IMG/VR virus record: IMGVR_UViG_3300045988_169405
Strand: one strand, 5' to 3'
From: a virus
DNA length: 64,000 nucleotides
Position numbers and translations under genes: made by a program. Below are positions 453-58,810 of this stretch, piece by piece; position 1 is the first letter of the stretch; each line of letters starts with the position of its first letter. The notes under the pieces were generated by a model. That model made no database searches. It was not told the origin of the DNA and saw only the letters and a program-made list of their open reading frames with translations.

Positions 453-519
453 CAGTACACCAAAAGACCCCCTCCAAATCACAAGATTCAGAGGGGGCAA
501 CCGAAAGGTTAGGGACTAA

Positions 520-2121
520 CTAGCTCTTGTTTTCCCACGGGAAACCAGCATCAATACCACGCTCAAGAAGCGGGATAAGCTCGAACCCCTTATCAGTCAG
601 ACCACCAAGCGACCAGCGGCGCTCCTTAGCCTCCATATGAGCCGCCTCATACCCGGCAAGGTTCCAGGTGAAGACATTCACATGCGCCGGTACATAGCGG
701 TCAAGAACCTCATCGACAGTGTACTCATCACCCCAGTACCTACGGGCATTAAGGCTCTGCTCATCACTGATAATGAGGATACGGTCATGACCATTATAAG
801 ACTCACGCAGAGCCTTAGCGGTAGCGGTACCACCACGAGCCTCCGGCATGTCATTCTCAACAACACGCAACAGGTCATTAGAGGTAATCTTAACCTTCTC
901 AACCTGAGTATCGAACGCCACAACATCAACGCGACCCTTATTCTTCAGAGCAAAGGCGGCGGCGAACATGTTAGCGGCATCCTGACGCGACAGAGAGCTA
1001 CGCTCAGAAAGGCGGCTACCCATAGAGCCGGAACGGTCAAGAAGAAGCAGGGTGCGACCCGGCAACTCCGGCACATTATCCAGCACACTATTAGCACCCG
1101 CCTGTAGTGCGGCGGCAAAATCAAGCGGCGCGTTCTTGTAAGCGGCAAGGAAGTTAATCGGCATAGTCTTCGCACGCACAATAGCTTCCTCATCACGCAA
1201 CTTACGGTTAATCTTCTCGATAGTATCGTAAGACACACCCGCGTTGCTGATACGGCTCAGGTTCATACGAAGCGCCTGGTAACCCATATGGTCAATGAGG
1301 TTATCCCAAACCTCAGCCGGGATAACACCAATAGTACCCGCAATTACCTCATGGGTAAGACGCGCATCCTTGATGATACGGTCAGCGGATTCCTTATCGG
1401 AAAGAACCTTAATCTTCTCATCCTTGGTGAGGTTCAAGAAGTCACGGCGTGCCTTCATGACGGACAGCTCTTCAAGGTTCGGCTCACGACCGTAAGCAGA
1501 ATCAATGATAGCGCCGTACAGGTTCTCACGGTACTTATCAGACGGCTTCGGGTGAACAAGGTTCACCACATCAGCAAGAGTGAAAGCACCCTTAGCCATA
1601 CGACCCTGCCACTTCAAAACACTGTTCTCAGTAACAGACCTATTCAGGGCATCAGCAATACCACGCTTCACAGCAGACGGCACCTTACGACCAAAACGAG
1701 AGAACCAATAAGCCAGGAACTCACTAGACTCATCCAGACGACCAATAGCGGCAGAAACAAGGGCACGGTTACCACCACTCAAACCAGCCTCCAGGCGCGC
1801 ATGAACAGCTTCAGCGGCAATCATTGCCGGTACAGCACGAAGACCCGCCTCCTGGCGAAGCCAACCAATCAGACCCTCAAGCCAAACATTATCGTCTGCA
1901 ACCTGCTTCACAAGACCAGCGATACGGTCAGCACGCGCGTCAGCCTTCTCATAGAACGTATCCTCATTCAGCGAAGTAACGGCGGCTAGGAACAGCTCAG
2001 CCTTCGGGGTACGCTTCCAGCCGGTACCACCCTCAAAGGTGCTGATACGCTCGCCGGTAGTGTCAATCTTATTAGTCGCCTTGTTAGCGGTCACATGGTT
2101 CTTAGTGTTGAATCGTCCCAT
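520..2121 (-). CDS. rsr: Ro60/Rsr-like protein: N-terminal TROVE-like domain + C-terminal von Willebrand A domain (MIDAS motif D-R-S-G-S: LLLDRSGSMGS)
   Basis: 533 aa; the vWA DxSxS motif is read directly; TROVE+vWA architecture and size match Ro60; candidate Y-RNA repeats lie adjacent. Confidence 0.6.
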   Translation of the reverse strand: MGRFNTKNHVTANKATNKIDTTGERISTFEGGTGWKRTPKAELFLAAVTSLNEDTFYEKADARADRIAGLVKQVADDNVWLEGLIGWLRQEAGLRAVPAMIAAEAVHARLEAGLSGGNRALVSAAIGRLDESSEFLAYWFSRFGRKVPSAVKRGIADALNRSVTENSVLKWQGRMAKGAFTLADVVNLVHPKPSDKYRENLYGAIIDSAYGREPNLEELSVMKARRDFLNLTKDEKIKVLSDKESADRIIKDARLTHEVIAGTIGVIPAEVWDNLIDHMGYQALRMNLSRISNAGVSYDTIEKINRKLRDEEAIVRAKTMPINFLAAYKNAPLDFAAALQAGANSVLDNVPELPGRTLLLLDRSGSMGSRLSERSSLSRQDAANMFAAAFALKNKGRVDVVAFDTQVEKVKITSNDLLRVVENDMPEARGGTATAKALRESYNGHDRILIISDEQSLNARRYWGDEYTVDEVLDRYVPAHVNVFTWNLAGYEAAHMEAKERRWSLGGLTDKGFELIPLLERGIDAGFPWENKS

Positions 2122-2249
2122 GATAGGGGTTCCTTCCTATAGTTACTGTTTGGGGTGGCTGGTTGATGCCCCTTATCTGTTGTGCTTGCTTGTTTTTGGG
2201 TAAAAGAAATGGGGGTGCGGAGAACCAGCCATGTCGAGGTTAGTTACTA

Positions 2250-2455
2250 GCCGACAAAGGCGACCGGTTTCGTTGCAAATTTACAGATTTGTTTGAAGTA
2301 ACTCGACAAATTCACATCCACACCCCCAAAGGGGAGCAAATATATTACACTATATTCGCTAGTGCCCGTAGCAAGTTCGACCCTGCGTGTCACCTTTCAG
2401 TGCAACACCCCCTATTGGGGTGCGGGCTTTGAAGTGTTGGAATTGTAGAGAATGG
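2250..2455 (+). ncRNA. candidate Y-RNA-like / tRNA-like ncRNA, repeat unit 1 of 3 (strand uncertain)
   Basis: tandem ~235-bp repeat; T-arm-like GCAAGTTCGACCCTGCG at ~2370; hairpin CACCCC-ctatt-GGGGTG; adjacent to the Ro60 gene. Confidence 0.35.
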
Positions 2456-2464
2456 AGCTTATCG

Positions 2465-2700
2465 AGGGTGTTTGACTAGTCTAAAGGCGACCAGTTCATG
2501 ATTCTAAGCAATTCCCAAAATTGTTGAAGTAACTCGATAATCGCGCTTCTACAATTCCAAGTGTAGCACAGGGGTTATCCCCCTGCAAGTGTTCATAACA
2601 GGTTTGACTCTGTGTGCCACCTTTCGGCGCAACACCCCCTGCGGGGTATGAACTGTTATTGTGTTGAAGGTACAGAGAATTAGTCTCAATCGAGGTTGTA
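2465..2700 (+). ncRNA. candidate Y-RNA-like / tRNA-like ncRNA, repeat unit 2 of 3
   Basis: same unit; ACAGGTTTGACTCTGTG T-arm-like; hairpin ACCCC-ctgc-GGGGT (covariation versus unit 1). Confidence 0.35.
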
Positions 2701-2704
2701 TTTA

Positions 2705-2940
2705 ACTAGCCCGCCGGTTATTAGCCAGCAGGTGATTAGTTGTTAGCAATTCCCATAATTGTTTAGAAGTAACTCGATTGAATCGCTTCTGTACTCTCAA
2801 GTTTATTATAGCAAACCTTGTTTAGGCCTGCAAGTGCCTGTAGCAGGTTCGACTCTGCGTGCTCTGAGCACCCACCCTTATGGTGGTACAGGCTCCATTG
2901 GGCTCGCGCCCCCTTGGATAGCAACCGCAAGTCTTTCAGG
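2705..2940 (+). ncRNA. candidate Y-RNA-like / tRNA-like ncRNA, repeat unit 3 of 3
   Basis: same unit; GCAGGTTCGACTCTGCG (GGTTCGA T-loop-like); hairpin CACC-cttat-GGTG. Confidence 0.35.
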
Positions 2941-3037
2941 TTTCCCTGTCGTCCTTACACATATAACTATAACGTACCTGCGTGGGGTATGCAAGTCAAA
3001 AACTAACTATTTTCGTATGGGCTTCACCACACCCCTT

Positions 3038-3388
3038 TTACTGGGTGACATATGCTTCGATTCGACCGTTGCCGCAGTGGATAATGTGAGTGTCCTTAGC
3101 CTTGACGCGGGTGTTAGTGGTGTTGGTGTACATGTTGGTGGTTGCCGCTAGGTTGTATCGGAGCCAGTGGGTAGCGTTGCCGCCCTTTTCCATGTTTCGG
3201 ATTACGGGCTTGAGGTTGCTTGAGTTGAGGCGTTCTAGGGTTGCGCGGCGGGTGATGGTGGTGGTGGGTCGCCCCTTCTTGTCATTGAGTCGGAGGGCGG
3301 TGATGGTGCCGGTCTTCTTGTCGTATTCAATGGTGATGCGCTGACTGGCTCGCTTGTTGCGGCGGCTAAAAAGCTTGAAGATGTTCAT
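3038..3388 (-). CDS. hypothetical basic protein (116 aa)
   Basis: ORF; degenerate copy of the promoter module at ~2945-3010. Confidence 0.55.
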   Translation of the reverse strand: MNIFKLFSRRNKRASQRITIEYDKKTGTITALRLNDKKGRPTTTITRRATLERLNSSNLKPVIRNMEKGGNATHWLRYNLAATTNMYTNTTNTRVKAKDTHIIHCGNGRIEAYVTQ

Positions 3389-3838: not shown

Positions 3839-3902
3839 AGGTGGTGAATCCTATAGGGGTTCCTATAGGGGGTTTCAGGGTTTCCCCCTTTGCTTATGTA
3901 AC

Positions 3903-3960
3903 TATTATGCCACACTCTAGCGGGGTACGCAAGTCGAAACAATGTGAACCTGGTCACATT
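3903..3960 (-). promoter_or_regulatory. conserved promoter module (ATGTGAACCTGGTCACAT + TTGCGT-N17-CATAAT)
   Basis: copy 2. Confidence 0.6.
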
Positions 3961-4442: not shown

Positions 4443-4639
4443 CCGGTAGGTGAATCACCTGCTAGATATTCAAGGTGGCACCCACCCAGTATACCAGTAC
4501 TGCTGACTGGGTGCCAACCCGCGCCTGTGTGTCCCGTATCGGGGCAGGTTTAGATGTCGCATATCTTACGGCTCGTTATGGACACTCACGAGTTAGCACA
4601 ACGTGATTCAGGGCGCTCTTTTTTATTCTTCAAAAATCC

Positions 4640-5060
4640 ACCTCCAGAACCCTTATAGTCCCCGTCAGGGTAACCATCTATTAGCTATCTACAATCCACC
4701 CCCTATCTAATCCAGGGTGAACCTATATAACCTTCTCGCGCACGCGCGTAATAATCTTTATCCCCATCTATAGTCATTATGCCCCAAATACCCCGTTTTA
4801 CCCCGGTATTACAAGGAACAACCACCCCCAAGACGGGGCGGAAACTCCCAAATAGTCACCGGTAGAGCCCTTATAGTCACCCCCAAATAGTCCCCGCAAA
4901 CTCCCAAATAACCACCCCCAAAAAGCCCTAATAGTCACCCAAGGGCCCTTATAGTCACCGGGGTGCCCTGGCATTGATTGGGCGCTTCTATACCTTGCCG
5001 CTAGAGCCCTTATAGTCACCCCTGCATTGAGCTACAAGAGTCCCCTATAGTCACCGCGCC
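4640..5060. repeat. iteron-like direct repeats, (G)CCCTTATAGTCACC in at least 6 copies plus CTCCCAAATA(G/A) sub-repeats
   Basis: copies at ~4650, 4867, 4926, 4945, 5006, 5042; lies in an ~800-bp noncoding region. Confidence 0.7.
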
Positions 5061-5235
5061 ATAGAAGCCGCTCTAAGTAGCGCAAATAATGTGAAGTAAT
5101 CATGAGTCATAAACCCTAAATAATCCCCACAGTGGGCTTCCTGTACCTTCCTATAGGGTCTTTATAGGCATAGTAATACCCCCATAAGATTCAATGACCT
5201 TACGGGGGTATTACTTATAGATGGGGTGTTAGGCG

Positions 5236-6216
5236 CTACTGGTCGCTTTTCTTGATGTACTTTTGAGCTTCACTCTTGGGTACATGGAACGCAATTTTTG
5301 CGCGTCCAGCATCCCAAGCGTTCACGGCACAGCCCGTGTCACGACCTTCTACGCAGAGCGGCTGTCCATCAAAAACAGTCAGCCGAGTGCGATACAAGGG
5401 GGTGTACTCGACATACGCCTTACCAGGCTCCTGGTCTTCAATAATAAAGTACTTATCAGGCGTGTAGGTGACTTCCTGCTTAGCCGGTGATTCACCTTCC
5501 TGCACCCAAGCATATAGGGGCTTCGTAGGTTTATTGGCACTCTTGGCACTATCAAGTAGAGTATCGCTAGGGGTGCCGCCCGTGTTCTGGATTTCGTGTG
5601 CTATCTGCTGTTGCCCATTATTACTATCCAGCTCTCGTAGTGGGTACTTGATGGTCACGGTCTGGTGCGTACCATTTTCAACCTTCGTATCAGGCATTAG
5701 CTCCAACGCCTTAACATTAGGGCTTACAACGGCAAGGGTTACCAGGGCAATGCTGACAATAATCTTTAGGATTGAACTAACCATAATCTTGCCGTATTCC
5801 TTGTAGCCATATTCCCATAGGGCGTGCGGGTTTTTATGAACCCACCAATCATGGGTGAGGCGGTCGCACCCGAACAATATTTCAAAACCTTCAAAACCTG
5901 GGTCTTCCGGCACGCCTTCGGGAATGTCCTTATTGAAAAAGAACGCCGGTATGATTGCGGCAATAATTAGCCCACCAATAACGTAAGGGACAACCTGGGC
6001 ATCTAGCTTTAGAGTCACCGCAACAGCAATAAGCATGAAGATGAAACTGAAACTTTTCAGCTCTGAAGGCACAGGGTCAAAGGACGGCAGAGGCCCCTTG
6101 AAATTTCGTTCTTTGAACTCTTTAATTCCTTTGGTGAGCCGCCATGCAACTATCGCCTTATAAACTTGAAACGGAATGAAGGCAATGAGCATTAGCAACA
6201 GGAGCGTTAGGAACAT
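5236..6216 (-). CDS. membrane protein (several N-terminal TM helices + C-terminal soluble domain)
   Basis: hydrophobic segments in the translation. Confidence 0.55.
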   Translation of the reverse strand: MFLTLLLLMLIAFIPFQVYKAIVAWRLTKGIKEFKERNFKGPLPSFDPVPSELKSFSFIFMLIAVAVTLKLDAQVVPYVIGGLIIAAIIPAFFFNKDIPEGVPEDPGFEGFEILFGCDRLTHDWWVHKNPHALWEYGYKEYGKIMVSSILKIIVSIALVTLAVVSPNVKALELMPDTKVENGTHQTVTIKYPLRELDSNNGQQQIAHEIQNTGGTPSDTLLDSAKSANKPTKPLYAWVQEGESPAKQEVTYTPDKYFIIEDQEPGKAYVEYTPLYRTRLTVFDGQPLCVEGRDTGCAVNAWDAGRAKIAFHVPKSEAQKYIKKSDQ

Positions 6217-6329: not shown

Positions 6330-8030
6330 CGGTGGGAAGGGTGCATGACTGTTGCTGAGTTTATTGATATTGCGCCCATGATTTAATATTGATAATATTA
6401 GATACATTAGCCGCAACCCAAAGACACTAGAGAGGAGGGTGCGTTGGCAAAGAACAAAACCTATAGGGCGTTTGTCGCGCGCCCAACCCATGTTCTCGAC
6501 TTGAACGGTGAGCTACTGGAAGCCGCGCCTATCATGGCTCAGCTCACTACTGAGGTTCGCGGCATTTCGTCTTACGCAACTTACGTTACCCGTAACGACA
6601 CTCAGCTTGAGGCGGGTCTGGCAACGGCTGGCACTGCCCAGCCTGCGGTTGTGGGTCGCCGCGCGGGTATCACTATGCCCGAGTTTCTTGTAACCGGCAA
6701 GTCTGGTAGGTCGCGTAAAGAATGGCTGGTTAGGTATAACGTCGTCACAGCTTTCCGTTCCTGGCAGGAACGCATCAAAGCCGTAAACGGTGAAAGTGAT
6801 AAGTATGTTTCGCAGGGCTGGAAACGCACCGTGAATGACTCGGCCCCCACGTATGGCGAGGGCACTATCAATCTCGGTGCTGTAGACCGTTGCTACGCCG
6901 TAATTGAGAACAATCCGTTTGTTGATGGTGAGATTACCCTCAAGATGGTTATCCGTGGCGCATGGTATCGCCTATTTTTCCCCTTCGATAATACCCGCTT
7001 CACTGAGGGTAAGGTCACTTTGCCACTCATCAAGGTTCAGGACGGCGCGCCCGTTTTCATTTTCTCCGTGGTGACGGATAACCCGATTGTCCAGTTCTCT
7101 GGTGACTATGTTATCGGCGTGGATGTTGGTATCAATGATTATGCTACCGTCGTGGTTCGCAATACTGTAACGGGTGAAATCACTCACCAGACGACACTCT
7201 CTCAGCGTGTCCATTCGCTCTGGAATAGTGTTCGTGCGTCTGAGCGGCAGGTGCGTCAGCTTAGAGAGAAAGCCGCCCGGTTGTTGAATGACCGCCCATA
7301 TGAGCGTCAAGCAATTATGGCGGCACTAGACGAGGCACAACTCCACCGCAAGGCGGCCTCTAGGAAGAAACGTGAACTCGCTATCCTTGCCGCCCAGGAA
7401 ATTGCTTATTTGTCGCATTTCTTTGGTAATGCTGTTGTTGCTGTTGAAGACCTCAGCTGGATTACGAATACCATGCAGAACGGCAGGTGGAACAGGGGCG
7501 CGTTCACCCAATGGCTCACCCATTACGTCAGTCAGAATGGTGGGTGGGTCGTATCTGTGAGCTCTTTTAATACGTCGCAGGTATGCCATGTGTGCGGTGT
7601 GGAAGTCACACACCCTGAACACAGGGTATCTATATGCTCTAAGCACGGCATGATGGATAGGGACGTGAACGCCGCCGCAAACATTGCGGCGCGCGCTGTA
7701 CCGAAGGTTGAGAAGGCGCGTAAGAAGCGTTCCAGGAACAGTAAGCTCCAACCGCAGGCTCCTCTGAAAACCCCGGTAGCTAGGGGCTCTTTGAAGTACC
7801 CTGGTCGTGATAGGACGAAGAACGCGCCTACACCAAAAAGGAAGAACCACTCCCAAGTTTCTAGGGAGGTGACTCTTCCTTCTAGCCCCGCTAGGGCACA
7901 AGCAAAATGCTTGGAAGCCAGCGTACTAGCGGACTGCCTCGCATACGGTGTTGCAGGGACTTCTCAAGCGGCTATCAAACAGGGAACCATAACCAAATAT
8001 AGGTTATGTAGCCCTATTTGATACAGTATT
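6330..8030 (+). mobile_element. putative IS605-family (tnpB-only) insertion; ends not precisely defined
   Basis: opposite strand to every other gene; AT-rich left flank; right end abuts the stop of 8014-9099. Confidence 0.55.
6444..8021 (+). CDS. tnpB: IS605/IS1341-family TnpB (OrfB) RuvC-like nuclease; TTG start. The long C-terminal tail is probably read-through over the omega-RNA/right-end region
   Basis: RuvC-I IGVDVGINDYATVVV, RuvC-II AVEDLSW, Zn ribbon CHVCG...CSKHG, RuvC-III DRDVNAAANIA; only plus-strand gene; AT-rich 5' flank. Confidence 0.8.
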   Translation: MAKNKTYRAFVARPTHVLDLNGELLEAAPIMAQLTTEVRGISSYATYVTRNDTQLEAGLATAGTAQPAVVGRRAGITMPEFLVTGKSGRSRKEWLVRYNVVTAFRSWQERIKAVNGESDKYVSQGWKRTVNDSAPTYGEGTINLGAVDRCYAVIENNPFVDGEITLKMVIRGAWYRLFFPFDNTRFTEGKVTLPLIKVQDGAPVFIFSVVTDNPIVQFSGDYVIGVDVGINDYATVVVRNTVTGEITHQTTLSQRVHSLWNSVRASERQVRQLREKAARLLNDRPYERQAIMAALDEAQLHRKAASRKKRELAILAAQEIAYLSHFFGNAVVAVEDLSWITNTMQNGRWNRGAFTQWLTHYVSQNGGWVVSVSSFNTSQVCHVCGVEVTHPEHRVSICSKHGMMDRDVNAAANIAARAVPKVEKARKKRSRNSKLQPQAPLKTPVARGSLKYPGRDRTKNAPTPKRKNHSQVSREVTLPSSPARAQAKCLEASVLADCLAYGVAGTSQAAIKQGTITKYRLCSPI

Positions 8031-9590: not shown

Positions 9591-10364
9591 CTACTTCTTG
9601 TTGTTTGCCTTCAGCTTTGCAAGCTCATCATCCAGGGCGGAATCAACAGCCAGAGAGTCCAGCTCATCGAAGCCGTCCTTTACCGGGTCAGCCATAATCT
9701 CCTGACGACCCTGAAGACGTGCCTCCTCACGGGCGATACGCTCTTCCCACTCATTCATAGGCGAGCTCAGGTTAGTACCATTGACGTTGATACTCTCAGT
9801 AGCGTCAAGGATACGACCCATAGCCTCATTCGTCTTATGACGTGCCAGAAGCTCATCACGCTGGTGGTGAGCCGCCGCCAGCTTCTCACGTGCATCATTC
9901 AGCTGACCCTTCAGAGAATCAACACGCGGGGTAGCAACCTTAATCTGCTCCTCAAGCTTCTCAGCAGTCTTCTCAGCGTTAGTACGGTTCTTCAGGGCGA
10001 TACGTGCCAGACCGTCAAACTTATCAGCCTGAGCCTCAGCCTTGGTACGTGCCGGGTCACCAACCTCAAGCTTCTCAGCCTGAGCACGGAACTCATCAGC
10101 CTTATCAGAAGCCGCCTGAGCCTTAACCTGCCACTCCTGAACCTTGCCCTGTTCCTTCTTATGGTCAGACTCCATGATGCGCAGGTTGCCGATAACCTCA
10201 GCAACATTACCCTCCGCTACACGAATCTCTTCCTTGTAGTCACGGATAAGCTGGTTCAGCATCTCCTGCGGGTCTTCCGCCTTATCAATTGCGGTGTTAA
10301 TCTTTGCGCGAATGAGGTTGTTGAAACGTGCAAAAATGCTGTTCTTGTTCTGGTTCTTACCCAT
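9591..10364 (-). CDS. pspA: PspA/IM30 (phage shock protein A / Vipp1 / LiaH) family coiled-coil protein
   Basis: the N-terminus MGKNQNKNSIFARFNNLIRAKINTAIDKAEDPQEMLNQLIRDYKEEI matches the PspA N-terminal helix (MGIFSRF..INALLEKAEDPQK); ~255 aa coiled coil; start chosen at the ATG preceded by GAAAGG. Confidence 0.75.
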   Translation of the reverse strand: MGKNQNKNSIFARFNNLIRAKINTAIDKAEDPQEMLNQLIRDYKEEIRVAEGNVAEVIGNLRIMESDHKKEQGKVQEWQVKAQAASDKADEFRAQAEKLEVGDPARTKAEAQADKFDGLARIALKNRTNAEKTAEKLEEQIKVATPRVDSLKGQLNDAREKLAAAHHQRDELLARHKTNEAMGRILDATESINVNGTNLSSPMNEWEERIAREEARLQGRQEIMADPVKDGFDELDSLAVDSALDDELAKLKANNKK

Positions 10365-10625
10365 TGTGGGTTTACCTAACCTTTCGTTGGTTAATGTTGT
10401 GGAACATGATTCACGGTCGCCCATCCTGTAGGGCTTCCTGTCTTTCGTGTGACCTTTTAGGGGTCATACTCAGAATATCAGGTTCCGGGGTTAAAATCTA
10501 GTGTATTACTGTATCGTCACCGACTGTTCACCTGTTGGAGCCAACCCTGCATACAAGGGGAAGGTGCTTCTTGTCTAGGGTAAATACCTAGCCAAGTTGC
10601 GAAATACATTCACTATAAGTCTTCC

Positions 10626-13859: not shown

Positions 13860-14990
13860 TTACTTACGGTGCTTACCGCGAGTCAGGAAAGCATTAGAAA
13901 CAATCTTGAAGTGGGCACGGTTAGCAATTTCACGGCGGGGCTTACCGTCCTTGAAGTACCAGACGATGCCTTCGGCGGTCTGACCGGGCGCTACCTGAGA
14001 CTCTACAGAGTCAGCCTGCTCAAGGGCGGCAAAGCCGTTACCTACCCATTCAATGTCGAGTACGGGTACCCAGAGGTTCGCGTCCTTGAATAGTGCTTCG
14101 ACAGTATCGTTAGATGCGTGGAAGGCGCGGAAATCGGGCTGGTCGCCGGTAGCAAACTTGAAGGTACCCCTAATCTTGTTGCAGAAAAGTTCACCCTGTA
14201 CCCATTCACCCGGCTTGAGCTGGTCAAAAACATGGGCGTAGCGGCGGTAACCGTCAAGGTACTGCTTCCAATTCTTGCTATCCATTGCGTCTACCTTAAT
14301 GGAGCGGTCACGGTTAGCGATACGAATTTCACCGGTATCAGCATCACGCCAAACAGTCATAGAGGTGCCGTCAATCTTCTCAGTAGCATACACGTCATCT
14401 GCGGTGATGCTATCCAGGAAGTCGGTAGGGATATTCTGGACGCGCTCAGCGTCAGTCTTGGTGATGAAGTTAGGGAACGCTTCTAGACCGTAGTCACCAC
14501 CGGCAAGAATCTTCTCCTCGACATGCTTAGTGATGATGCCGTCGAAGTAGGTGTCCACCTCTTCTTGAGTAGCATCTTCACTCAAGCCTTCAAACTCAGA
14601 GACGGGCAAGATAAGACCCTGCGACAGGGTTTCACGCAGGTACATGGTGCGCAGTACTACGCCTTCAATATAGTGTCCATTGACAACGCGGGTCGCCTTC
14701 TTGCCACGGATAGGCTCAAACGCCGGGTGCTTGGTGTTGAGGATTGAGTCAATCTCAAAGTAAACACCCTTATCGCCTTCGGTCATGGTCTTGGGCGCTA
14801 CAACCCACCACAGGGTGCCTTCGGGTCGGACGGCGTGAATCTTATCTGCCGGGTTGTTACATTCCTTTACTTCTTCAATGGTGGTAATGTGTGCGAGGTG
14901 TCGGATACCGTCTACGGCGGTAGAAGTCATGATGTTTATGTTCCTTATCTTTCGGATATGCTGGGTTCCCCGTATGGTGAATAATACCAT
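13860..14990 (-). CDS. ATP-dependent RNA ligase-like covalent nucleotidyltransferase (Rnl family; N-terminal domain + NTase)
   Basis: motif I TEKIDGTS (KxDG), motif IV AEGIVWYFKDGK (EGhVhK), motif V HFKIVS; likely start at MTSTAVDG (14930). Confidence 0.5.
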   Translation of the reverse strand: MVLFTIRGTQHIRKIRNINIMTSTAVDGIRHLAHITTIEEVKECNNPADKIHAVRPEGTLWWVVAPKTMTEGDKGVYFEIDSILNTKHPAFEPIRGKKATRVVNGHYIEGVVLRTMYLRETLSQGLILPVSEFEGLSEDATQEEVDTYFDGIITKHVEEKILAGGDYGLEAFPNFITKTDAERVQNIPTDFLDSITADDVYATEKIDGTSMTVWRDADTGEIRIANRDRSIKVDAMDSKNWKQYLDGYRRYAHVFDQLKPGEWVQGELFCNKIRGTFKFATGDQPDFRAFHASNDTVEALFKDANLWVPVLDIEWVGNGFAALEQADSVESQVAPGQTAEGIVWYFKDGKPRREIANRAHFKIVSNAFLTRGKHRK

Positions 14991-54079: not shown

Positions 54080-54143
54080 GATTAGCACCTTTCGGTAGAT
54101 AGTGGAACTAGCTTTAGGGGTGATTCCCTATCGCTTATATAAC

Positions 54144-54202
54144 TATTATGCCACACCCTAACCGGGTGCGCAAGTCGAAACCATGTGAACCTAGTCACAT
54201 TT
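54144..54202 (-). promoter_or_regulatory. conserved promoter module (ATGTGAACCTAGTCACAT)
   Basis: copy. Confidence 0.6.
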
Positions 54203-58676: not shown

Positions 58677-58750
58677 GCTTGTAAACCTCTTTCAGTGGGT
58701 AGGTAGTGAACATGTTGCTAGGGTGTTTCCATAACGCCTTATATATATAA

Positions 58751-58810
58751 CTATTATGCCACACTATTTGGGGGTATGCAAGTTAAAATCATATGAAATA
58801 GCTCACATTA
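58751..58810 (-). promoter_or_regulatory. conserved promoter module
   Basis: copy. Confidence 0.6.

What the first reader, a model, noticed from the sequence alone, without database searches (positions are those of the whole stretch)
520..3040. Ro60/Rsr homolog with three tandem tRNA-like candidate Y-RNA repeats
The 533-aa protein ends in a vWA domain with an intact MIDAS motif (DRSGS) after a ~350-aa N-terminal domain, which is the TROVE+vWA layout of Ro60/Rsr. Directly upstream, 2250-2940 is noncoding and made of three ~235-bp tandem units. Each unit has a T-arm-like GGTTCGACTCTG-type motif, and a downstream hairpin whose stem differs between units while keeping pairing (CACCCC/GGGGTG, ACCCC/GGGGT, CACC/GGTG). 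Bacterial and phage Y RNAs (YrlA) are tRNA-like and are encoded next to rsr. A triplicated Y-RNA locus beside rsr would be unusual.
Basis: partly seen in the sequence, partly recalled or inferred. Interest (0 to 1): 0.8.

Follow-up and report, generated by a model that had tools for sequence, protein, structure and literature searches.

The report
Phage Ro60 gene with three Y-RNA-like repeats
A large uncultivated phage carries a Ro60 RNA-binding protein gene preceded by three tandem RNA units, each a degenerate tRNA-like cloverleaf plus a long Y-RNA-like stem-loop; this is a new layout of the known Ro60/Y-RNA partnership, not a new kind of system.

Summary
Window 520-2121 (-) encodes a Ro60/Rsr homolog with TROVE and vWA domains and an intact MIDAS motif. 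The 916-bp upstream gap holds three ~230-240 bp diverged repeats.

The units read best on the minus strand, the same strand as Ro60. Each has three parts:
- B', a 4-way-junction cloverleaf in tRNA arm order. tRNA and YrlA models do not detect it.
- C', a small hairpin.
- A', a 120-140 nt stem / internal loop / stem hairpin.

A' is the real Y-RNA candidate. A covariance model of A' finds one or more copies directly upstream of Ro60, on the same strand, in every related clade (47-99% Ro60 identity). Covariation is strong. The model also hits a YrlA-type element beside the Ro gene of Arthrobacter phage Atuin. In relatives, genuine tRNAs or a YrlA-like element sit where B' sits here. This suggests tRNA-style processing of a poly-Y-RNA precursor.

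Rfam YrlA (RF02553) does not match the window. Tandem Y-like arrays of 3-4 elements also occur, unannotated, in known actinophages, so triplication itself is not exceptional.

Verdict: new variant of a known kind, moderately interesting.

The parts
520..2121 (-). Ro60/Rsr homolog, 533 aa (TROVE HEAT-repeat ring region plus C-terminal vWA domain with MIDAS DRSGS...T...D)
   Evidence: Pfam TROVE 1.5e-11 and VWA_2 2.9e-6. A profile of 28 homologs hits solved Ro60 structures: phiLo 9KOP 8e-41, Xenopus 1YVP 5e-12, human 9NEN 1e-9, D. radiodurans Rsr 2NVO 1e-8. tblastn hits are annotated 'Ro-like RNA binding protein' in actinophages.
2208..2330 (-). A'1: the Y-RNA-like stem / internal loop / stem hairpin nearest Ro60. 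S1 arms are 2210-2221 and 2317-2328. The S2 5' strand is UGUCGAG, followed by UUACUUC.
   Evidence: R1 covariance model gives 86 bits, but this is a seed member.
2201..2209 (-). U-tract (UUUCUUUUA) directly after the A'1 outer stem. Likely the 3' end of the Y RNA and an intrinsic terminator or attenuator, 87 nt before the Ro60 ATG.
   Evidence: The Ro-proximal A' is followed by 4-8 T in 10 nt in most clades. The internal A'2 and A'3 have only 1-2. The generic terminator scan did not call it because the hairpin is too long.
2335..2359 (-). C'1: small hairpin between cloverleaf and A'1
   Evidence: MFE fold. Compensatory variants are seen in relatives.
2360..2431 (-). B'1: tRNA-like 4-way junction. 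It has a 7-bp closing stem with one C.A mismatch, a D-like arm CCCC/GGGG, a variable anticodon-like arm, and a T-like arm GCAGG-GUCGAA-CUUGC.
   Evidence: R2 model gives 85.5 bits, but this is a seed member. Single-sequence MFE gives the same cloverleaf.
2436..2561 (-). A'2: second Y-RNA-like hairpin. S1 arms are 2437-2449 and 2548-2560 (13 bp, perfect). Motifs AGA-AGCG and AUCGAG-UUACUUC are present.
   Evidence: (I4).
2568..2586 (-). C'2: small hairpin (CAGGGG-GAUAA-CCCCUG)
   Evidence: Relatives carry the compensatory variant CAAGGG/CCCUUG.
2587..2657 (-). B'2: tRNA-like cloverleaf (closing stem GUUCAUA/UAUGAAC)
2663..2801 (-). A'3: third, promoter-proximal Y-RNA-like hairpin (S1 arms 2664-2676 and 2788-2800)
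   Evidence: (I8).
2811..2831 (-). C'3: small hairpin
2832..2897 (-). B'3: tRNA-like cloverleaf. It has a perfect 7-bp closing stem GCCUGUA/UACAGGC, a 5-bp D-like arm, a 5-bp arm with a 3-nt loop, and a T-like arm.
2961..2994 (-). Promoter-like element. TTGCATACCC (2985-2994) is followed by GTTATAGTTATAT (2961-2973), placing the transcription start just upstream of B'3.
   Evidence: Both half-motifs are over-represented in the window (36 vs 15 expected; 28 vs 9.5 expected), and the exact matches are mostly (first motif) or all (second motif) on the minus strand. They pair up at ~400-428, 3896-3932, 54137-54173 and 58745-58781. Function is inferred, not shown.
467..498 (-). Terminator-like hairpin plus U-tract downstream of Ro60

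Best explanation
The 2201-2994 region is transcribed on the minus strand, together with or just ahead of the Ro60 gene, from a phage promoter near 2961-2994. The precursor carries three composite units, each B' - C' - A'.

A' is a Y RNA of the kind that lacks an internal tRNA-like domain (YrlB-like). It has an outer helix S1 ending in AGA, an internal loop beginning (A/U)G(C/U)G, and a 7-bp helix S2 closed by a G-C pair. An invariant UUACUU follows S2, then a variable apical part. This is the same stem architecture that carries the Ro60-binding site in YrlA-type RNAs of other Ro-encoding actinophages, so A' most likely binds the phage Ro60.

B' is a degenerate tRNA-shaped cloverleaf. A 7-bp acceptor-like stem stacks on a 5-bp T-like stem. 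It occupies the position held by genuine tRNAs, or by a YrlA-like element, in related phages. It most likely serves as a handle for host tRNA-processing enzymes (RNase P, RNase Z), which would cut the precursor into individual RNAs. It may additionally act as a tRNA mimic.

The last A' ends in a U-tract. This would set its 3' end and limit read-through into Ro60.

By analogy with Deinococcus, Salmonella and phage phiLo, the Ro60-Y RNA particles would recruit a host exoribonuclease such as PNPase and redirect structured-RNA decay during infection.

Shown here: the structures, the strand, conservation and linkage to Ro60. Inferred: transcription, processing, Ro60 binding and downstream function.
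For: Ro60 identity.

A' structure:
- 92.9% of cells are paired, against 34-52% when partners are slid.
- 16 of 18 pairs show compensatory change across 89 distinct sequences.

Linkage of A' to Ro60:
- Model R1 was built from only 7 A' elements.
- It hits directly upstream of Ro60, on the Ro strand, in every clade not used for the seed: L041-type 56 bits, L078-type 36 bits, L053-type 30 bits.
- In the 64-kb window it gives exactly three hits.
- Of 80 IMG/VR loci fetched by a bare sequence pattern, three had R1 hits at E<=0.01. The two best-scoring are exactly the two loci that encode Ro60; the third (L099, E 0.006) has none in the DNA held.

Homology of A' to YrlA stems:
- R1 hits Atuin 4974-5120 (E 6e-5), which encloses an Rfam YrlA hit at 5019-5077.
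- The Quantum YrlA 5' strand GUCGUCG-GUUACUUC aligns to the Rfam consensus cggCga-AUGCuu. The window has GUCGAG-UUACUUC at that position.
- The L004 YrlA-like element has the same ...AGA-AGCG outer stem.

Strand:
- Z-scores are -4.4, -4.9 and -5.3 for the Ro-sense strand, against -1.9, -2.6 and -3.3 for the opposite strand.
- G.U outnumbers A.C by 120 to 43 in A' and 65 to 32 in B'.
- A promoter motif lies on the minus strand.
- A U-tract follows only the last A'.

B' structure: 87% of cells are paired against 35-51% slid, and 14 of 23 pairs are compensatory. 18 of the 19 copies tested fold to the same cloverleaf on their own.

Processing idea:
- In L053, tRNA-Ser 2296-2385 abuts A' at 2387.
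- In the same locus an A'-like element at 4588-4696 lies between tRNA-Tyr and tRNA-Gln.
- M. smegmatis YrlA is cut by RNase P, and YrlA and YrlB come from one precursor (PMC4201824).

Phage precedent: phiLo Ro60 binds two upstream Y-like RNAs and forms complexes with PNPase (PMC12135203).
Against: - No expression, processing or binding data exist. The phage is uncultivated.
- Rfam YrlA and tRNA models do not hit the window.
- The published GNCGAA motif is only approximated (GUCGAG, AUCGAG). It is not conserved across clades, because S2 covaries.
- R1 finds nothing significant at the experimentally tested phiLo Yrl locus.
- B' lacks D-loop GG, has a 6-nt T-like loop, and is not called by ARAGORN even when relaxed. 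Recognition by RNase P or RNase Z is therefore unproven.
- Much of the B' covariation comes from differences between the three paralogous units, so it reflects few independent events.
- The promoter and terminator are pattern-based inferences. The generic scan was not enriched over shuffles.
Confidence: 0.68

Rival explanations
1. Each unit would be a YrlA-type Y RNA on the plus strand, with a permuted tRNA-like domain: T-arm GGUUCGAC first, then an acceptor-like hairpin, then a D-like hairpin. It would be transcribed divergently from Ro60.
For: On the plus strand the arm order (T-like, middle arm, 4-bp arm) matches the T-AS-D order of YrlA, and the loop reads UUCGAC. Helices are strand-symmetric, so covariation alone cannot exclude this reading.
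Against: - RF02553 gives no hit on either strand at E<=10. It does detect real YrlA-type elements in relatives, always on the Ro strand.
- The cloverleaf is not enclosed by a Ro-binding stem.
- The third arm has a 3-5 nt loop without GG.
- G.U pairs would become A.C mismatches on the plus strand.
- Z-scores are weaker on the plus strand.
- The conserved AGA-AGCG and GUUACUUC motifs, the U-tract and the promoter motif all read on the minus strand.
- Chen et al. found nearly all YrlAs on the Ro60 strand (PMC4201824).
Confidence: 0.05
2. The array is mainly a cis-acting 5' leader of the Ro60 mRNA rather than a source of stable small RNAs. Ro60 would bind the A' elements in its own leader and tune termination at the A'1 U-tract or translation, giving autoregulation.
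For: No promoter motif lies between the array and Ro60. The Ro-proximal A' doubles as a terminator-like stem plus U-tract, 34-158 nt before the ATG, in most clades. A' is always immediately upstream of Ro60.
Against: A'-like elements also lie downstream of Ro60 between tRNAs in the 53-55% clade and downstream of Ro in Atuin. There they cannot be leaders. Known Y RNAs are stable trans-acting RNAs (PMC4201824, PMC12135203). The two roles are not mutually exclusive.
Confidence: 0.17
3. The cloverleaves are decaying tRNA pseudogenes and the repeats are remnants of a duplicated tRNA cluster, or a DNA-level repeat such as iterons or a mobile element, with no RNA function.
For: The phage has 17 tRNA genes elsewhere. 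Relatives have real tRNAs next to Ro60. Outside its own family, the B' model's next-best hits are genuine tRNAs, although weak at E 0.03-2.5.
Against: Base pairing is maintained by compensatory and wobble changes in all four B' helices and both A' helices. Substitutions between 91%-identical relatives cluster in loops. Strand-asymmetric motifs are conserved across clades whose Ro60 is only 47-62% identical. No terminal inverted repeats or target duplications were seen.
Confidence: 0.05

Closest known systems
YrlA / YrlB bacterial and phage Y RNAs (Rfam RF02553; Chen et al. 2014, PMC4201824)
   Same: - Encoded within 1 kb of a Ro60 ortholog, on the same strand, in multiple copies, probably from one precursor.
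- The 5' and 3' ends pair into a stem / internal loop / stem module.
- The S2 helix plus following loop aligns with YrlA helix 1 plus AUGCuu.
- There is a tRNA connection, as in M. smegmatis, where YrlA is an RNase P substrate.
   Different: - No hit to RF02553.
- The tRNA-like module is not nested in the apex of the Ro-binding stem in T-AS-D order. It sits outside, 5' of it, in ordinary D / anticodon-like / T order.
- The tRNA-like module is much more degenerate: no D-loop GG, a 6-nt T-like loop, and a variable 'anticodon' arm.
- The GNCGAA motif is only approximated.
- An extra outer helix S1 and an AGA-(A/U)G(C/U)G loop are conserved.
Yrl1 / Yrl2 of Thermus phage phiLo (PMC12135203)
   Same: Phage-encoded Ro60 with more than one Y-like stem-bulge-stem RNA directly upstream. 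For phiLo, binding to phage Ro60 and complexes with host PNPase were shown in vitro. The window's Ro60 family profile matches phiLo Ro60 at 8e-41.
   Different: No detectable RNA similarity: R1 gives E>=0.047 on the phiLo locus. phiLo has two elements and no cloverleaf modules are described.
Unannotated Y-like arrays in Streptomyces phages BRock and Quantum, Arthrobacter phage Atuin and Gordonia phage VanLee
   Same: They carry tandem arrays of 3-4 elements with ...(A/U)GCG...G(U/A)UACUUC... 5' strands next to 'Ro-like RNA binding protein' genes, often among tRNAs. They mix YrlA-type elements and elements without a tRNA-like domain.
   Different: In those phages the tRNA-like domains are canonical, nested YrlA domains (Rfam 32-47 bits) or real flanking tRNAs. 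The window clade has regular B'-C'-A' units instead.
tRNA-punctuated processing of non-tRNA transcripts (for example the MALAT1 mascRNA tRNA-like element, and mitochondrial tRNA punctuation; from general knowledge, not tested here)
   Same: A cloverleaf-shaped element adjacent to another RNA could recruit RNase P or RNase Z to define that RNA's ends.
   Different: Cleavage at B' is not shown. B' deviates strongly from tRNA consensus.

Membership tests
Ro60 / Rsr (TROVE + vWA) | TROVE (HEAT-repeat ring) domain | tested here: met
   Pfam PF05731 at 1.5e-11, 44.6 bits against a cutoff of 23, although only residues 269-328 match. The family profile aligns along most of its length (two stretches, profile positions 22-216 and 247-514) to phiLo Ro60, and over positions 150-454 to Xenopus Ro60, human Ro60 and Rsr.
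Ro60 / Rsr (TROVE + vWA) | C-terminal vWA domain with MIDAS motif | tested here: met
   VWA_2 scores 28.3 bits (cutoff 27). vWA_Ro60 scores 22.4 bits, below its cutoff of 27.7. DRSGS at 362-366 plus T432 and D453 are invariant in 28 homologs.
Ro60 / Rsr (TROVE + vWA) | Ring structure that binds Y RNA and misfolded RNA | not tested
   No structure prediction or binding assay was run.
YrlA (Rfam RF02553) | Match to the family covariance model at or above the gathering score (69 bits) | tested here: not met
   No YrlA hit in 2100-3100 on either strand at E<=10, and none in the whole window at gathering. As a positive control, the same model gives 32-47 bits beside Ro genes of VanLee, Quantum, BRock, Atuin and L004.
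YrlA (Rfam RF02553) | Encoded within 4 kb of Ro60 on the same strand | tested here: met
   A'1-3 and B'1-3 lie 87-780 nt upstream of the Ro60 ATG. The minus strand is favoured.
YrlA (Rfam RF02553) | GNCGAAN0-1G motif near the 5' end | tested here: inconclusive
   At the homologous position the window has GUCGAG-UUA (A'1) and AUCGAG-UUA (A'2, A'3). Across clades this helix covaries and only the closing G plus UUACUU is invariant.
YrlA (Rfam RF02553) | tRNA-like domain (T arm, acceptor-like stem, D arm) nested inside the Ro-binding stem | tested here: not met
   The apex of A' holds only simple hairpins. The cloverleaf B' lies outside A' and has D-AC-T order with non-tRNA loops.
Y RNA in the broad sense (Ro60-bound stem-bulge-stem RNA) | 5' and 3' ends pair into a long stem interrupted by a conserved internal loop | tested here: met
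   S1 (12 pairs) and S2 (6-7 pairs) have 92.9% pairing and 16 of 18 compensatory pairs. The conserved loop motifs are AGA-nGcG, UUACUU and UucuCu.
Y RNA in the broad sense (Ro60-bound stem-bulge-stem RNA) | Physically bound by Ro60 | not testable with these tools
   Needs EMSA or co-immunoprecipitation. Only genomic linkage is shown.
tRNA (for the B' cloverleaf) | Cloverleaf with a 7-bp acceptor stem stacked on a 5-bp T stem | tested here: met
   Four helices are supported. There are no linker nucleotides between the T-like arm and the 3' strand of the closing stem.
tRNA (for the B' cloverleaf) | Detected by tRNA models; conserved D-loop GG, 7-nt UUCRANY T-loop and 7-nt anticodon loop | tested here: not met
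   ARAGORN and RF00005 find nothing there. Relaxed ARAGORN gives inconsistent calls. The D-like loop is 3-5 nt, the T-like loop is GUCRAA (6 nt), and the middle arm loop is 3-9 nt and variable.

The most novel reading that the evidence does not exclude
The B'-C'-A' unit would be a topologically rearranged Y RNA. The tRNA-mimic module has moved out of the apex of the Ro60-binding stem, where YrlA has it, and become a separate 5' cloverleaf derived from a flanking tRNA. That cloverleaf serves both as an RNase P/Z processing handle for a poly-Y-RNA precursor and as the tRNA-like effector arm. The last Y RNA doubles as a Ro60-responsive terminator, so the phage couples Y RNA dosage (three copies) to Ro60 synthesis. 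This would show that tRNA mimicry in Ro60 RNPs has evolved more than once and in modular fashion. It would also define an A'-type Y RNA family, widespread in large uncultivated actinophages, that current models miss.
Probability: 0.3. Interest if true: 0.65.

Novelty: new variant of a known kind. Interest (0 to 1): 0.5.

Why it matters
Ro60-Y RNA particles are conserved from bacteria to humans, where they are a lupus and Sjogren autoantigen. How phages use them is barely explored: there is one in-vitro study, on phiLo.

This locus and about 90 related metagenomic loci define a Y-RNA-like family that the Rfam YrlA model does not detect. They show that it travels with phage Ro60 across wide divergence.

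The loci also display a graded series of arrangements:
- a real tRNA followed by the Y RNA;
- a YrlA-like element followed by the Y RNA;
- a degenerate cloverleaf followed by the Y RNA, three times over.

This series makes the evolutionary link between tRNAs and Y RNAs, and the processing of multi-Y-RNA precursors, directly testable. It also gives a covariance model for annotating such RNAs in actinophage genomes, where they are currently unannotated.

Tried and rejected
- megablast and blastn against INPHARED phages gave no close relative. The only hit was an 84-nt match inside the Atuin Ro gene.
- The search for related loci on IMG/VR with the single protein found nothing.
- TRF does not see the repeats.
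- The supplementary YrlA alignments of Chen et al. are not held, so they could not be used.
- The generic sigma-70 and terminator scan was not enriched over shuffles. I relied instead on a phage-specific recurrent motif.
- RNAalifold on a plain MAFFT alignment of B' recovered only the closing stem, the T-like arm and part of the D-like arm, because MAFFT mis-registers the variable arms. A model-based alignment was used instead, and that leans towards the given structure.
- ARAGORN with relaxed or mitochondrial settings gave inconsistent calls on B'.
- R1 on the phiLo locus gave nothing significant.
- The bare pattern AGAAGCG-N5-12-GTTACTTC in IMG/VR is mostly chance matches. It was useful only as a negative set.
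- Rfam finds nothing in the ~420-nt insertion of L018.
- Mycobacteriophage (cluster C) Ro loci were not retrieved. They did not appear among the leading tblastn hits, so the published ET08 and Bxz1 YrlAs were not compared directly.


Full report
**The protein.** The ORF at 520-2121 on the minus strand encodes 533 aa.
- Pfam finds TROVE at 1.5e-11, above its cutoff but covering only residues 269-328. It also finds VWA_2 just above cutoff and vWA_Ro60 just below.
- tblastn against deposited phages gives 85 records, led by genes annotated 'Ro-like RNA binding protein': Arthrobacter phage Atuin at 39% identity, and Streptomyces and Gordonia phages at 31-35%. Thermus phage phiLo is at 27%.
- A profile of 28 metagenomic homologs matches the solved structures of phiLo Ro60 (8e-41, two stretches covering profile positions 22-216 and 247-514), Xenopus and human Ro60, and D. 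radiodurans Rsr.
- The MIDAS residues D362, S364, S366, T432 and D453 are invariant in that alignment.

The protein is therefore a Ro60/Rsr homolog.

**The repeats.** The 916-bp gap between this gene and the next minus-strand gene (3038-3388) contains three-copy direct-repeat families spaced 227-245 bp apart, at 64-81% identity. Each copy has a pair of 12-13 nt inverted arms about 95-111 nt apart. The arms differ in sequence between copies but stay complementary. Rfam (4227 families, E<=10, both strands) and ARAGORN find nothing there.

**Relatives.** No deposited phage is close. The protein databases hold hundreds of homologs on contigs of up to 240-400 kb. I fetched 92 loci. They fall into Ro60 identity classes of 94-99%, 59-62%, 53-55% and 47-48%. 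In the 94-99% class the whole upstream region is about 91% identical to the window. All three units are present, and most substitutions fall in loops or are wobble or compensatory.

**Anatomy and strand.** Read on the minus (Ro60) strand, each unit folds into three parts:
- a compact four-way junction, B';
- a small hairpin, C';
- a long hairpin, A'.

Several lines favour the minus strand:
- Z-scores against dinucleotide shuffles are -4.4, -4.9 and -5.3 on the Ro strand. On the other strand they are -1.9, -2.6 and -3.3.
- G.U pairs outnumber A.C mismatches by 120 to 43 in A' and 65 to 32 in B'.
- A bipartite motif, TTGCRYACCC then ATAATRGTTAYAT about 14 nt later, is over-represented, and its exact matches lie mostly or wholly on the minus strand. 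It recurs in front of minus-strand genes and of the tRNA array. A copy sits at 2994-2961, just upstream of the first unit.
- The A' nearest Ro60 is followed by UUUCUUUUA. The two internal A' copies are not followed by a U-tract. The same holds in most other clades.

**A' is the Y-RNA-like element.** Inspection of relatives showed the same hairpin immediately upstream of Ro60 in every clade:
- an outer helix S1 ending in AGA;
- a loop beginning (A/U)G(C/U)G;
- a 7-bp helix S2 closed by G-C;
- then UUACUU(C), a variable apex, and the return strands with ...UUC-UCU...

A covariance model (R1) was built from seven such elements, three from the window and four from two other subclades. Over 625 kb of loci plus the window, its results were:
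- It found 141 matches. All lie on the Ro strand except one weak (E 0.08) reverse-strand match at the position of a top hit.
- It gave exactly three hits in the 64-kb window.
- It hit clades not in the seed at 56, 36 and 30 bits.

On the resulting alignment of 89 distinct sequences, 92.9% of cells pair, against 34-52% when partners are slid by 1-3 columns. 16 of 18 pairs show compensatory change.

As an independent check, I retrieved 80 IMG/VR loci by a bare sequence pattern. Most are chance matches. Three had R1 hits at E<=0.01; the two best-scoring are exactly the two loci that encode a Ro60 homolog, again directly upstream of it, and the third (L099, E 0.006) has no Ro60 in the DNA held.

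**Relation to YrlA.** Rfam's YrlA model gives sub-threshold but clearly non-random hits, on the Ro strand, beside the Ro genes of several phages:
- VanLee, 47 and 33 bits;
- Quantum, 43 bits;
- BRock, two hits of about 32 bits;
- Atuin, 32 bits;
- the 60% relative L004, 34 bits, E 1.4e-5 in the local search.

In Quantum the 5' strand GUCGUCG-GUUACUUC aligns to the model's cggCga-AUGCuu. That segment contains the GNCGAAN0-1G motif that Chen et al. proposed for Ro60 recognition (PMC4201824). The window has GUCGAG-UUACUUC or AUCGAG-UUACUUC at the equivalent place.

The L004 YrlA-like element has the same ...AGA-AGCG outer stem as A', and it is itself followed by an A'. R1 hits Atuin 4974-5120, which encloses the Rfam YrlA hit.

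So A' shares its stem module with YrlA-type RNAs but lacks their nested tRNA-like domain. This resembles what Chen et al. called YrlB. By eye, supported by the two models, BRock, Quantum and Atuin each carry three or four tandem Y-like elements beside Ro. Multiplicity is therefore common, though unannotated.

**B' is tRNA-shaped but not a tRNA or a YrlA domain.**
- A second model (R2) finds B' three times per locus in the window clade.
- It finds one weak copy upstream of the two tandem A' elements in L035.
- Beyond that it finds only genuine tRNAs, at E 0.03-2.5.
- Pairing is 87%, against 35-51% when slid, and 14 of 23 pairs are compensatory. Many of these reflect differences between the three paralogs.

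The closing stem is 7 bp. It abuts a 5-bp T-like arm without a linker, as in tRNA. The other features are not tRNA-like: the D-like loop is 3-5 nt, the T-like loop is GUCRAA, and the middle arm varies freely.

In the 53-55% and 47-48% clades a real tRNA-Ser ends 1-2 nt before A'. In the former, a second A'-like element lies between tRNA-Tyr and tRNA-Gln downstream of Ro60. This positional equivalence is the basis for proposing that B' recruits tRNA-processing enzymes to release the Y RNAs. M. smegmatis YrlA is an RNase P substrate, and YrlA and YrlB come from one precursor (PMC4201824).

**Function.** No tool here can show transcription, processing or binding. By analogy, Y RNA tethers Ro60 to PNPase in D. 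radiodurans and Salmonella (PMC4201824), and phiLo Ro60 binds two upstream Y-like RNAs and forms ternary complexes with host PNPase (PMC12135203). The most likely role is therefore formation of phage Ro60-Y RNA particles that redirect host exoribonucleases. The window also encodes an RNA ligase and 17 tRNAs, which fits a phage that invests in RNA maintenance.

**Verdict.** It is a new variant of a known system and of moderate interest.

Noticed in passing
window 20537-23659 (-): An array of 17 tRNA genes on the minus strand. One, at 22913-22990, is called by ARAGORN with a 4-base anticodon (taac, 'tRNA-???') and scores only 38 bits with Rfam tRNA. A copy of the recurrent promoter-like motif lies just upstream (23819-23831).
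   Followed up: no
window 6444-8021 (+): A 525-aa ORF with a Cas12f1-like/TnpB TNB domain (8.8e-14). It is one of the few large plus-strand ORFs in a minus-strand gene block. The relative L004 has two 515-aa TnpB-like genes flanking its Ro60 locus.
   Followed up: no
window 13860-14990 (-) and 9591-10424 (-): An RNA ligase (PF09414 plus a PHA02142 OB-fold) and a PspA/IM30 family protein are encoded within 13 kb of Ro60. The RNA ligase, tRNAs and Ro60 together suggest an RNA repair and maintenance theme.
   Followed up: no
window, minus strand: 392-428, 2961-2994, 3896-3932, 9457, 12547, 23819, 41159, 45088, 54137-54173, 58745-58781, 61763, 63975: A recurrent motif, TTGCRYACCC followed about 14 nt later by ATAATRGTTAYAT. 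Exact matches are mostly (first half) or all (second half) on the minus strand and are well above shuffle expectation. It is probably this phage's promoter consensus.
   Followed up: partly
L018 1648-2068 (and L023 193-405): In two close relatives the array is disrupted. A ~420-nt insertion sits inside the outer stem of the first A', and the first and second units are fused. No Rfam family matches it and no convincing ORF is present.
   Followed up: partly
L010 (Streptomyces phage BRock) 2420-2900; L012 (Quantum) 2520-2930; L009 (Atuin) 4670-5260; L011 (VanLee) 2550-2940: Deposited actinophage genomes carry unannotated tandem arrays of 3-4 Y-RNA-like elements next to their 'Ro-like RNA binding protein' genes. 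The arrays mix YrlA-type elements and elements without a tRNA-like domain.
   Followed up: partly
L010 5079-5242 (+): A near-threshold match to the manA RNA motif (RF01745, 49.7 bits against a gathering score of 55.2) between tRNA-Lys genes in Streptomyces phage BRock.
   Followed up: no
L053 4588-4696 (and equivalents in the 53-55% clade): A second, more elaborate A'-like element lies downstream of Ro60, exactly between tRNA-Tyr and tRNA-Gln.
   Followed up: partly
L002 1810-3171: A relative with 62% Ro60 identity encodes a PolyA_pol/CCA-adding-enzyme family protein just upstream of its tRNA, Y RNA and Ro60 block.
   Followed up: no
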